Positions 14,580 through 17,500 of a stretch of DNA of 25,915 nt are shown piece by piece. The number at the start of each line of letters is the position of its first letter. The first letter of the stretch is position 1. The DNA is from a virus (lineage: Duplodnaviria > Heunggongvirae > Uroviricota > Caudoviricetes): the IMG/VR virus record IMGVR_UViG_2529292922_000015, one strand, 5' to 3'. The position numbers are program-made.

Positions 14580-17500
14580 TAAGTAACACCGCTATTTTCA
14601 CAATGGACATTCGTCCTACGTCGCTGACAAAGCGAGTCCCAATATATCTGACCAACTAAGGCCATATGCGTTTCCACGCATACCTTTCAACTAACTATTC
14701 ACTATTGGAAATATTAAGAAATGACACAAGCAAGTTACAGCAAGCCAACACAGCGAGAAATTGATCGCGCAGAAACTGATTTACTCATCAACCTGTCAAC
14801 GCTTACCCAGCGCGGTCTGGCAAAGATGATTGGCTGTCATGAATCGAAGATAAGCAGAACGGACTGGAGATTTATTGCTTCGGTCTTGTGTGCTTTCGGA
14901 ATGGCATCAGACATAAGTCCGATTAGCAGGGCTTTTAAGTATGCGCTTGATGGACTCACCAATAAAAAACGCCCGGTGTGCAAGACCGAGCGTTCTGATC
15001 AAATACAAATGGAATTTTAATAACATCCAACGAGGTAATTATATGCGAAAAACGCAGGAAAATAAACGCGTTAATCACCGAAAAGATGTGCTACGTGACC
15101 AGTTTTATCAGGGGGTTAATCCAGCAATAGCTGTGCCACTGAGAGAAATACTTAACAGGTACAAAACTTCGGAGAAGTCAAAATGAGCATGAATCTTATG
15201 GCTAAGGCCATGAATATAAAGGTTGGCAACCCACTGAGAAAACTGGTTCTGATTAAACTTGCCGATAACGCCAATGATAATGGCGAATGCTGGCCTTCAT
15301 ATCAACATGTCGCTGACCAGTGTGAGGTGAGCAGATCGACAGTAAAAAGTCACATTAGGGCGCTGGAAGAGATGGGGCTTTTGAAAAGGGAATTCAGAAG
15401 AAAAGGAGAGCTTAACCAGTCAAACGTTTTTTTATCTGACGCTGGATAATGCACAACAAATACAACCAGAATCAGGTGGGGCAGGAGCTGCCCGGGGTGG
15501 GGCAGGAGCTGCCCGGGGTGGGGCAGGAGCTGACCTAGGGGGTGGGGCAGGAGCTGCCCCCAGAACCTATCACTCTTTTGAACCAGTCAATGAACCTAAA
15601 AACATTATGTTCGAACATGTCCGAACAGAGTGTGAAAAAACTCCTGACCGTCACGAAGAAACCGACAAGGCATTCGAGGAAATATTCTGGTGTGCAGGCA
15701 TGCGGAAAGCCGGGAAGAAAAACGCAGCTTCGGCATTCAGAACACAGTTCAGGGAATGGCGTAAAACTACCAGGGGTACGGCAAGCGAGTTTGCCACGAT
15801 GCTGGCAGAAGACATCGCATGCAGGAATGGTAAGCAGTTCGGATTCGACAGGTTGTTACCATCGAGCTACCTGAACGGTCAGCGCTGGAACGACGAAAAG
15901 CCAGAAACCATTCAACCACAATCCAAACCATCATCCGCAATCACCGTATCGAAAACTGGCTACGTGTTTTTCGACAGGTGAACCATGAAATCAAAAATCA
16001 AATCGCTACTGGTCGCTGGTTATAACCACGGCTGGTTAAGTATTTCGTTTGTCGATTTCTGGTTTAAAAATCTCAATCTGAGGGAATCATGACGCCAAGT
16101 GAACTTAGCGACCTGCTTTGGGCGCAGGTTGACAGGGTGGCTCCGCACCTGTTGCCAAACGGCAAGAAAGAGGGGCATGAGTGGGTTGCCGGTAACGTCA
16201 ACGGTGACAAGGGAAACAGCCTTAAGGTCAACCTTAGCGGCAAGAAAAAATGGGCTGATTTCGCTGAGGGAGACGGCGGTGACATGCTTGATTTGTGGAT
16301 GGCATGTCGAGGAATTAACCTGCATCAGGCTATGCAGGAAGCGAAAGCATTTCTCGGTATCAAGGATGACGATCACCATTTCGATGCCAAACGTGAGAAG
16401 AAATTCTCCAGACCTGATCGCAAGAAAATCGCCCGCTACGTTACCAGAACAGAATCCCATCTTGAGTACCTGCAATCGCGTGGCATATCGCCAGAAGTCG
16501 TAAAGCGCTACGAGGTTGTCAGCGGCAAGGTGTGGAATGGAGAACGAGAACTTGATGCACTGGTGCTTCCGTACAAACGCGATGGTGAGTTGTTGCAGGT
16601 CAAGCGAATCAGCACTGAGCGACCGGACGGGAAGAAAGTCATTATGGCAGAAGGTGATTGCGAACCTTGTCTGTTCGGATGGCAGGCTCTGGACGCTGGC
16701 GTGAGGGCGGTTGTACTTTGCGAAGGCGAAATTGATTGTATGAGCTATGCGCAATACGGCATCTCGGCGTTATCCGTGCCGTTTGGTGGCGGGAAAGGCG
16801 CTAAGCAGCAGTGGATTGAGTTTGAGTATCACAACCTCGACAGGTTTGAGGAAATATTCATCTCGATGGACGTTGATGATGTTGGTCGTGAAGCCGCAAG
16901 GGAAATCGCAAGCCGACTCGGTGAACATCGTTGCCGTCTTGTTACTCTGCCGTACAAAGACATCAACGAATGCCTGATGAACGGTGTTACCGAGGATGAA
17001 ATCTGGCAGTACATCGGCACGGCATCCTACTTCGATCCCGAAGAACTCTACAGCGCGCGAGAGTTTTACCAGGACACTATCAACGCTTTCTACGGCAAGC
17101 AGCAGTATCTGTTTAATCCACCGTGGGAATCTCTGGCAGATAAATTCCAGTTCCGTGAGGCCGAGTTGACGCTGGTCAATGGTGTGAACGGTCACGGAAA
17201 AACGGAGGTTGTCGGGCATATGGCACTTGAGGCAATGCGTCAGGGTGTGAAGACGTGCATCGCGTCACTTGAGCTGAAGCCAGGCATTCTCCTTAAGCGA
17301 CTTACCCGTCAGGCGACGTGCTGCAAGATGCCGCCAGTGCTGGAAATTGACTCTGCATTTAAATTTTATGACGAAAGACTTTGGGTGTTTGGCCTGACCG
17401 GAACGGCGAAAGCCGACAGGCTGATCGAAATATTCGACTACGCTCGCCGCCGATACGGCATCCAGTTATTCATCATCGACAGCCTGATGAAATGTGGCAT

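What the first reader, a model, noticed from the sequence alone, without database searches (positions are those of the whole stretch)
15183..15981. Replication initiator appears frameshifted at a T7 homopolymer just upstream of its iteron-encoded linker
The N-terminal winged-helix part stops at 15447-15449, but the +1 frame is open from 15415 across the four iterons (which would encode a Gly/Ala-rich linker) into the C-terminal ORF, with no start codon before 15607. The frames overlap at TTTTTTT (15427-15433). One fewer T gives a single ~266-aa O-like protein. This could be an inactivating mutation in a decaying prophage, a sequencing error at a homopolymer, or slippage-dependent expression.
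Basis: seen in the sequence. Interest (0 to 1): 0.5.

Follow-up and report, generated by a model that had tools for sequence, protein, structure and literature searches.

The report
One-base frameshift, probably a sequencing error
A prophage replication-initiator gene is split in two by one extra T in a run of Ts. No other copy of the gene found has that extra T, and the draft assembly it comes from has many such one-base errors, so it is most likely a sequencing artefact and not biology.

Summary
An 88-aa helix-turn-helix ORF (15183-15449) and a C-terminal ORF in the +1 frame overlap at TTTTTTT (15427-15433). Removing one T gives a 265-aa protein that matches a catalogued E. coli replication protein (P0016) exactly.

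About 190 related sequences all have T6 and a single ORF: 119 places in complete E. coli genomes, 17 phage records, 39 viral contigs, 8 metagenome contigs and 8 genome contigs. No orthologue has a natural two-gene arrangement.

The window is the end of draft contig AIEX01000024.1 (GCA_000249095.2). The truncated product is on record only in that contig.

Against the same prophage in a near-identical genome, the window differs by 2 substitutions and 6 one-base indels. At five of the six indels the window stands alone. Sister drafts with neighbouring accessions each carry 3-6 private one-base indels in this prophage, and these break other genes. Assemblies from other projects carry none.

The T7 is therefore most likely a homopolymer miscall (about 0.75). 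A genuine recent inactivating insertion remains possible (about 0.2). Programmed slippage is not supported.

The gene is a known φ24B-type "O" initiator with its origin repeats (iterons) inside its coding sequence, followed by a primase-helicase gene.

The parts
15044..15186 (+). Small upstream ORF (47 aa) whose stop overlaps the initiator start (ATGA).
   Evidence: Called as a 47-aa gene at this position in the sister loci L058/L062 and in phage records SI5 and phiXuzhou21. Part of the 81-aa ORF 14941-15186.
15183..15449 (+). N-terminal ORF of the initiator as it stands in the window. It is 88 aa: residues 1-83 are native, followed by 5 out-of-frame residues (LSDAG) and a stop.
   Evidence: Pfam HTH_36 at E=4.6e-15, residues 17-67. 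Identical to the relatives up to the T run.
15385..15449 (+). Stretch in which the N-terminal frame and the +1 (C-terminal) frame are both open.
   Evidence: upstream stop of the +1 frame is TGA at 15382-15384; stop of frame 0 is at 15447-15449.
15427..15433 (+). T7 homopolymer, which is T6 in every relative. This is the site of the one-base difference that splits the gene.
   Evidence: No exact T7 match in 114 complete E. coli genomes or 17 phage records. All 47 pattern matches in viral and metagenome contigs are T6.
15434..15981 (+). Remainder of the initiator coding sequence in the +1 frame: linker plus C-terminal domain. The first possible start codon is at 15607, with no Shine-Dalgarno sequence in front of it.
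   Evidence: PHROG 33384 covers residues 87-265 and PHROG 270 covers residues 2-252 of the repaired protein. The source record calls only a 93-aa ORF here.
15475..15560 (.). Four direct repeats (iterons) GGTGGGGCAGGAGCTGCCCGG, each with an internal inverted repeat GGGGCAG-GAG-CTGCCCC. This is the presumed replication origin, and it also encodes the Gly/Ala-rich linker.
   Evidence: spacing 21, 21, 24. GC is 76-82% here against 36% in both flanks. Copy number varies in 21-bp steps among relatives.
15985..16092 (+). Small ORF (35 aa) between the initiator and the primase-helicase gene.
   Evidence: Called as a gene in L058.
16089..17969 (+). Partner replication gene: a 626-aa primase-helicase with a Toprim domain and a DnaB-like ATPase domain.
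   Evidence: Pfam Toprim_2 at 3.1e-12, AAA_25 and DnaB_C. PHROG 239 'DNA primase/helicase' at 3.3e-171. Annotated 'P' in phage phi24B.

Best explanation
The split is most likely not biological. The window is the last 25.9 kb of draft contig AIEX01000024.1 (GCA_000249095.2). The seventh T at 15427-15433 is most likely a homopolymer-length miscall in that assembly.

On this reading the strain carries the ordinary intact gene: a 265-aa phi24B-type initiator with an N-terminal winged-helix (HTH_36) domain, a Gly/Ala linker and a C-terminal domain. The DNA encoding the linker is the array of four origin repeats. By analogy with lambda O, the protein would bind the repeats inside its own gene and recruit the primase-helicase encoded just downstream.

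Shown: the one-base difference, its uniqueness, the identity of the source contig and the error profile of that assembly family. Inferred: that this particular base is an error, and the replication mechanism, which rests on analogy and was not tested.
For: (1) Removing one T gives a protein identical over all 265 residues to P0016, which is found on 19-21 contigs.

(2) T7 occurs nowhere else. There is no exact match in 119 places in 114 complete E. coli genomes or in 17 phage records. All 39 IMG/VR and 8 metagenome matches are T6. The truncated product (83/88 aa) is on record only in the window's own contig.

(3) The window is 100% identical to AIEX01000024.1 over 12,813 bases, and the window ends 2 nt before the end of that contig.

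(4) Against the same prophage in GCA_900448265.1, which has the same IS21 insertion, the same immunity region and the same rusA stop, the 25.9-kb window has only 2 substitutions but 6 one-base indels (2715, 11221, 15427, 21771, 22029, 22993). At five of the six the window disagrees with every other assembly.

(5) Sister drafts with neighbouring accessions (AIFC, AIFB, AIEW, AIFA) each have 3-6 private one-base indels per 12-20 kb of this prophage and few substitutions. These break different genes in each draft: cI, istA/istB, ssb, lpxR, the TfpB-like gene. Assemblies from other projects have none: ADUL has 46 substitutions and 0 indels; GCA_965140055 and GCA_053258415 have 0 indels.
Against: No reads were available, so the base itself is unverified.

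Five of the window's six private indels fall in the roughly 10% of the sequence that is non-coding. That is fewer coding hits than uniform random error would give. The bias is partly explained because the longer runs sit in non-coding DNA: 15 of 49 runs of 6 or more are non-coding.

Two of the six indels are not in homopolymers.

The prophage shows real decay elsewhere: an IS21 insertion and a rusA internal stop, both shared with relatives. A genuine loss of the initiator would therefore not be out of character.

The sequencing technology of the draft could not be confirmed from the literature held.
Confidence: 0.75

Rival explanations
1. This is a genuine, very recent T6-to-T7 insertion, by replication slippage at the run, in this one isolate. 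It truncates the initiator after residue 83, inside the predicted second strand of the wing, and removes the linker and the C-terminal domain. The prophage could then not start its own replication after induction. It could be restored by T7-to-T6 reversion, or at a low level by +1 ribosomal slippage on UUU-UUA, which would give the wild-type residues V-F-Y.
For: Homopolymer runs are natural indel hotspots. The prophage already carries an IS21 insertion in the early-left operon and a nonsense codon in rusA. Other copies of this gene are disrupted in nature: an IS inserted in the iterons in L007 and L027, and a nonsense codon in L051. The window's other private indels spare coding sequence. A +1 slip of tRNA-Phe from UUU (15429-31) to UUU (15430-32) would restore the native sequence exactly (codons). 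Non-programmed frameshift suppression of 1-10% has been measured in E. coli for -1 events (PMC10861913).
Against: The allele is private to one draft contig. That contig and its sister drafts show an indel-to-substitution ratio of about 2-3 to 1 that assemblies from other projects lack, so any single private one-base indel here is far more likely technical. The divergence from the intact sister prophage is only 2 substitutions in 25.9 kb, which leaves little time for a real event.
Confidence: 0.2
2. The two-frame arrangement is functional. Either expression of the full-length initiator depends on programmed ribosomal frameshifting or RNA-polymerase slippage at the T run, or the run is a phase-variable switch for prophage replication.
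For: The frames overlap at a run of seven U. The insertion creates U UUU UUA in phase, a classical slippery heptamer. A +1 slip would give the native protein.
Against: Recoding sites are conserved among orthologues, yet all of about 190 related sequences have T6 and a single ORF. There is no tract-length polymorphism of the kind a contingency locus shows.

U UUU UUA promotes -1 shifts, and the -1 frame stops two codons on, at TGA 15437-15439 (read). The needed shift is +1 or -2.

There is no Shine-Dalgarno-like element at a stimulatory distance: the nearest GGAG, at 15405-15408, lies about 20 nt upstream. There is no A-site stop. The strong hairpins are the iterons, 45 nt downstream.

RNA-polymerase slippage in E. 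coli gives mainly insertions in A/T runs and very few deletions there (PMC5574713). Selection against slippage becomes evident at about 9 nt in many genomes (PMC1088944). Rescue here needs a one-base deletion.
Confidence: 0.03
3. The initiator is naturally two proteins here: a DNA-binding subunit and a separately translated helicase-recruiting subunit.
For: Gene callers list two ORFs. One PHROG family (33384) consists of the C-terminal part only.
Against: No relative has this arrangement. The second features under matches in SI5 and phiXuzhou21 are the small upstream ORF, not a split. The 124-aa 'C-terminal' proteins on record come from contigs that start 0-151 nt upstream of that ORF's ATG, in or next to the iterons. 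There is no start codon for 158 nt after the first stop and no ribosome-binding site before 15607.
Confidence: 0.01

Closest known systems
'O' replication protein of Stx phage phi24B (vB_EcoP_24B, ADN68416.1) and Min27, and the same gene in prophage PP2 of EPEC E2348/69 (WP_000062366.1)
   Same: 95-97% DNA identity over the whole gene. Same N-terminal HTH domain, same iteron sequence and same C-terminal domain. The same downstream primase-helicase gene, annotated 'P', and the same position after cII.
   Different: Those genes are single ORFs with T6 and three iterons (777 bp, 258 aa). The window has T7 and four iterons. The four-iteron, T6 version (798 bp, 265 aa) exists in other E. coli and equals the repaired window protein.
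Lambda O protein and ori-lambda
   Same: Layout and presumed logic: an initiator gene downstream of cII under pR control; the origin iterons lie inside the initiator's own coding sequence, between an N-terminal DNA-binding part and a C-terminal partner-recruiting part; AT-richer DNA flanks the repeats. The rest rests on established knowledge of lambda.
   Different: No Pfam Phage_rep_O domain; the N-terminus is HTH_36. The partner is a Toprim/DnaB-like primase-helicase, not a lambda P-type loader of host DnaB. The iteron sequence is unrelated.
Recoding sites (prfB +1 frameshift, dnaX -1 frameshift, IS-element A/T-run transcriptional slippage)
   Same: Two overlapping frames meet at a slippery homopolymer.
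   Different: Not conserved in any orthologue, wrong direction for the heptamer present, no stimulatory element at a working distance, and a run shorter than those used for transcriptional slippage.
Homopolymer-length errors of early high-throughput draft assemblies
   Same: Private one-base length changes, mostly in runs of 5-8 identical bases. There are many more of them than substitutions, they differ in each draft of one project, and they break genes that are intact elsewhere.
   Different: Two of the window's six private indels are not in homopolymers. The platform used for this draft could not be confirmed here.

Membership tests
phi24B-type HTH_36 phage replication initiator (PHROGs 4617 / 270 / 8540, 'replication initiation protein / O-like') | N-terminal HTH_36 winged-helix domain | tested here: met
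   PF13730 at E=4.6e-15 (88-aa ORF) and 5.5e-14 (repaired protein), residues 17-67. PHROG 4617 at 6e-77 and PHROG 270 at 1.3e-69.
phi24B-type HTH_36 phage replication initiator (PHROGs 4617 / 270 / 8540, 'replication initiation protein / O-like') | One polypeptide that joins the HTH domain, the iteron-encoded linker and the C-terminal domain | tested here: not met
   As written the window has two ORFs. With one T removed the feature is met, and the product equals P0016 exactly. All relatives examined are single ORFs of 232-282 aa, apart from IS or nonsense disruptions.
phi24B-type HTH_36 phage replication initiator (PHROGs 4617 / 270 / 8540, 'replication initiation protein / O-like') | Directly followed by a Toprim/DnaB-like primase-helicase gene | tested here: met
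   16089-17969, 626 aa, with Toprim_2, AAA_25 and DnaB_C. PHROG 239 at 3.3e-171.
Lambda O family (Pfam Phage_rep_O) | Phage_rep_O N-terminal domain | tested here: not met
   No such hit at E<=0.01. The best hit is HTH_36.
Lambda O family (Pfam Phage_rep_O) | Origin iterons inside the initiator gene | tested here: met
   Four 21-24-nt-spaced repeats at 15475-15560, inside the coding sequence.
Lambda O family (Pfam Phage_rep_O) | Works with a lambda P-type loader of host DnaB | tested here: not met
   The downstream gene is a primase-helicase, not a P homologue.
Programmed frameshift / transcriptional slippage site | The two-frame arrangement and the slippery run are conserved among orthologues | tested here: not met
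   No T7 in about 190 related sequences. All have T6 in one frame.
Programmed frameshift / transcriptional slippage site | Slippery motif suited to the shift that joins the ORFs | tested here: not met
   U UUU UUA is a -1 heptamer, and the -1 frame ends at TGA 15437-15439. The ORFs need +1 or -2. A +1 UUU-to-UUU slip is possible in principle but has no slow A-site codon of the prfB kind.
Programmed frameshift / transcriptional slippage site | Stimulatory element at a working distance (upstream SD-like sequence, or a downstream structure 5-9 nt away) | tested here: not met
   The nearest GGAG lies about 20 nt upstream. The stable predicted hairpins are the iterons, 45 nt downstream or more. A weak stem abuts the run with no spacer and would be equally present in the T6 relatives.
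Phase-variable (contingency) homopolymer locus | Tract length differs among isolates, switching the gene on and off | tested here: not met
   A single length (T6) in all other sequences.
Assembly artefact (homopolymer miscall) | The variant is private to one assembly, and that assembly shows an excess of private one-base indels over substitutions | tested here: met
   Window: 2 substitutions against 6 indels, 5 of them private. Sister drafts: 3-6 private indels each. Assemblies from other projects: 0. The truncated product is on record only in AIEX01000024.1.
Assembly artefact (homopolymer miscall) | Raw reads or resequencing show the consensus length (T6) | not testable with these tools
   No read data are accessible here.

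The most novel reading that the evidence does not exclude
The T7 is real, and the isolate carries a reversible 'off' allele of its prophage initiator. Low-level +1 slippage on UUU-UUA, or T7-to-T6 reversion, would supply native initiator in a small fraction of cells. The run would then act as an accidental switch that keeps an otherwise complete replication module silent but recoverable.
Probability: 0.03. Interest if true: 0.3.

Novelty: not a real feature. Interest (0 to 1): 0.05.

Why it matters
It matters little. If the T7 is an artefact, the only lesson is practical. Homopolymer frameshifts in this draft (GCA_000249095.2) and its accession-neighbour drafts should not be read as pseudogenes without checking reads, and the prophage's replication module should be treated as intact. 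If it is real, it is one more private loss-of-function mutation in a prophage that already shows decay. That would make this prophage unable to replicate after induction in one isolate. The underlying gene, with origin repeats that also encode the initiator's linker next to a primase-helicase gene, is already annotated in phi24B, Min27 and many E. coli prophages.

Tried and rejected
A structure prediction of the repaired protein from a single sequence gave an unusable model (mean pLDDT 36). No fold search was made.

A sequence search of solved structures gave only marginal hits. The best was MarR-family MgrA at E=0.27. I used it only as a weak hint that residues 70-87 form the wing hairpin.

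An exact look-up of the 88-aa product found nothing, because the source record calls the ORF from a later ATG (83 aa). The look-up of that form returned only the window's own contig.

The 124-aa C-terminal ORF is on record on four short contigs. These begin 0-151 nt upstream of its ATG, in or next to the repeats, so they are assembly breaks and not split genes.

A scan of one-genome-per-species contigs found no match to the junction pattern.

I considered that the bias of the window's private indels towards non-coding DNA (5 of 6) shows they are real and filtered by selection. I rejected this as decisive. Divergence is too low for selection to have acted on prophage genes, the long runs are enriched in non-coding DNA, and the sister drafts' private indels do hit coding sequence.

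Literature searches for the sequencing method of this draft series failed. My recollection that the AIE*/AIF* accessions are the DEC (diarrheagenic E. coli) collection drafts is unverified.

The papers on Stx-phage replication-module types (PMC8044961, PMC8951638) do not name this module explicitly.

Full report
**What is in the sequence.** A run of seven T lies at 15427-15433. An 88-aa ORF starts at 15183 and stops at TAA 15447-15449. In the +1 frame an open stretch runs to 15981, and its first ATG/GTG/TTG is at 15607. That frame is open from 15385, not 15415, so the frames overlap over 15385-15449. Four direct repeats lie at 15475-15560, spaced 21, 21 and 24 nt, each with an internal inverted repeat. 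In the +1 frame they read GGAGAAR GGAGAAR GGAGADL GGGAGAAP. Runs of seven or more are common in the window (16 of them), so the run alone means nothing. What matters is what the two ORFs add up to.

**What the gene is.** The 88-aa ORF carries Pfam HTH_36 (E=4.6e-15). The C-terminal ORF has no Pfam domain. The protein obtained by removing one T matches phage families annotated as replication initiation protein or O-like across both halves: PHROG 270 over residues 2-252 and PHROG 4617 over residues 1-145. It has no lambda Phage_rep_O domain. The next gene (16089-17969, 626 aa) is a Toprim plus DnaB-like primase-helicase.

In Stx phage phi24B the same two genes are annotated O and P. The repeats are 76-82% G+C and sit between flanks of 36% G+C. 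By analogy with lambda this is an origin inside the initiator gene. That mechanism is inferred, not tested here.

**Comparison with relatives.** Full-length DNA matches at 94-99% identity occur in 100 complete E. coli genomes and 10 phage records. Where annotated, each is a single CDS. In a four-way alignment the only frame-changing difference is one T: T7 in the window, T6 in the others.

A 66-nt query centred on the run found 119 places in 114 complete genomes and 17 phage records. None was an exact match; all had the one-base gap. A pattern that accepts T6, T7 or T8 found 39 viral contigs and 8 metagenome contigs, all T6. The repaired 265-aa protein exists exactly in the protein collection (P0016, 19-21 contigs).

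I looked for orthologues that are naturally two proteins and found none. The extra features under some phage matches are the small upstream ORF. The short products in L007 and L027 come from an IS inserted in the repeats, and the one in L051 from a nonsense codon. The 124-aa proteins on record come from contigs that break in or next to the repeats.

**Where the window comes from.** The window lies at the lambda attachment site next to ybhC. It is a lambdoid prophage closest to PP2 of EPEC E2348/69, at 99.5% identity over 74% of the window. The same prophage occurs with an intact initiator in GCA_900448265.1, GCA_000249215.2 and GCA_000183005.2. It has the same IS21 insertion, the same lambda-type cI/cro and the same rusA stop.

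A private amino-acid variant in the TfpB-like gene (23103-23846) served as a lineage marker. It is on record on one contig only, AIEX01000024.1 of GCA_000249095.2. That contig is identical to the window over 12,813 bases and ends 2 nt past the window's end. The window is therefore the end of that draft contig. The truncated initiator product is on record nowhere else among 153 billion gene positions.

**Error profile.** Against GCA_900448265.1 the whole 25.9-kb window differs by 2 substitutions and 6 one-base indels:
- 2715: +G
- 11221: A6 against A7
- 15427: T7 against T6
- 21771: T7 against T8
- 22029: G5 against G6
- 22993: +T

At five of the six the window disagrees with every other assembly. 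Four drafts with neighbouring accessions (AIFC, AIFB, AIEW, AIFA) show the same pattern in the same prophage. Each has 3-6 private one-base indels per 12-20 kb and few substitutions. These break a different set of genes in each draft: cI, the 145-aa ORF, istA/istB, ssb, lpxR and the TfpB-like gene.

Assemblies from other projects have none. ADUL has 46 substitutions and 0 indels, and two recent assemblies have 0 of either. An indel-to-substitution ratio of 2-3 to 1, private to each draft of one series, is not how close relatives diverge. It is what homopolymer miscalls look like. Given that background, a private one-base length change in a T run is most probably technical.

One observation sits uneasily with this. 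Five of the window's six indels are in the roughly 10% of non-coding sequence. Long runs are enriched there (15 of 49 runs of 6 or more), which explains part of it. The bias would be equally unexplained if the indels were real.

**If the T7 is real.** The product would keep residues 1-83 and lose the linker and the C-terminal domain. The break falls in what a weak match to MarR-type winged helices suggests is the second wing strand. This would be a null allele for replication initiation in a prophage that already carries an IS21 insertion and a rusA nonsense codon.

Some native protein could arise by a +1 slip of tRNA-Phe from UUU to the overlapping UUU, which restores V-F-Y-L-T-L (codons). 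Non-programmed frameshift suppression of 1-10% has been reported in E. coli for -1 events (PMC10861913). Rescue by RNA polymerase is unlikely. In E. coli, slippage at A/T runs gives insertions, and deletions are rarely initiated in runs (PMC5574713). Selection against slippage-prone runs appears at about nine bases in many genomes (PMC1088944).

**Programmed recoding.** This is not supported. There is no conservation. The in-phase heptamer U UUU UUA favours -1, and that frame stops at TGA 15437-15439. No SD-like element or structure lies at a working distance; the strong hairpins are the repeats, 45 nt away. No tract-length polymorphism exists.

**Verdict.** The most likely cause is a sequencing or assembly error (about 0.75). 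A genuine recent inactivating insertion comes second (about 0.2), and anything programmed is a distant third. The gene itself is a known kind. Interest is low.

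Noticed in passing
window 2715, 11221, 21771, 22029, 22993: Five further one-base indels relative to the same prophage in GCA_900448265.1. All are in non-coding DNA. Four of them are private to the window against every other assembly compared. Three are in homopolymers (A6/A7, T7/T8, G5/G6) and two are not.
   Followed up: yes
window 8964-10765: An IS21-family element (istA 340 aa, istB 260 aa) is inserted in the early-left operon of the prophage. The same insertion is present in GCA_900448265.1 and GCA_000249215.2 but absent from E2348/69 PP2.
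   Followed up: partly
window 20037-20399: The rusA gene has an internal stop at codon 46. E2348/69 PP2 also carries a rusA with an internal stop, where it is annotated as a pseudogene.
   Followed up: partly
window 20796-21755 (- strand) and 22144-22917: An lpxR (lipid A deacylase) gene lies on the opposite strand between ninH with a short antiterminator remnant and a full-length Q antiterminator gene. It looks like cargo inserted upstream of Q.
   Followed up: no
window 12765-13560 (- strand): Two ORFs (145 aa and 123 aa) with no Pfam match lie directly downstream of a lambda-type cI. In phage lambda rexA and rexB occupy that position. They are conserved in several prophages with this immunity region (L058-L060, L064) and could be exclusion or defence genes.
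   Followed up: no
window 15475-15560; relatives: The iteron copy number differs among relatives in steps of 21 bp (7 codons), so the reading frame is always kept. Gene lengths of 777, 798, 819 and 840 bp in complete genomes correspond to 3, 4, 5 and 6 repeats. Lower counts in short-read contigs may be assembly collapse.
   Followed up: partly
window 15597-15981; L026, L031, L054: The initiator is a mosaic. Its C-terminal half is 93-97% identical to 'replication protein O' of phages mEp043, Sf101, ES18, epsilon34 and g341c, which have a different N-terminus. Other contigs (L026, L031) keep this N-terminus and these iterons but carry an unrelated C-terminal core with the same last 20 or so residues.
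   Followed up: no
L007 (about 2080) and L027: Two viral contigs have an insertion sequence with the same junction (…CCCTAGGGGGTGCCCCTATTAAGTTG…) inside the iteron array. The origin repeats may be a preferred insertion target.
   Followed up: no
window 18805-19311: An HNH endonuclease ORF (168 aa) sits within the nin region. In E2348/69 PP2 only a remnant is annotated at this place.
   Followed up: no
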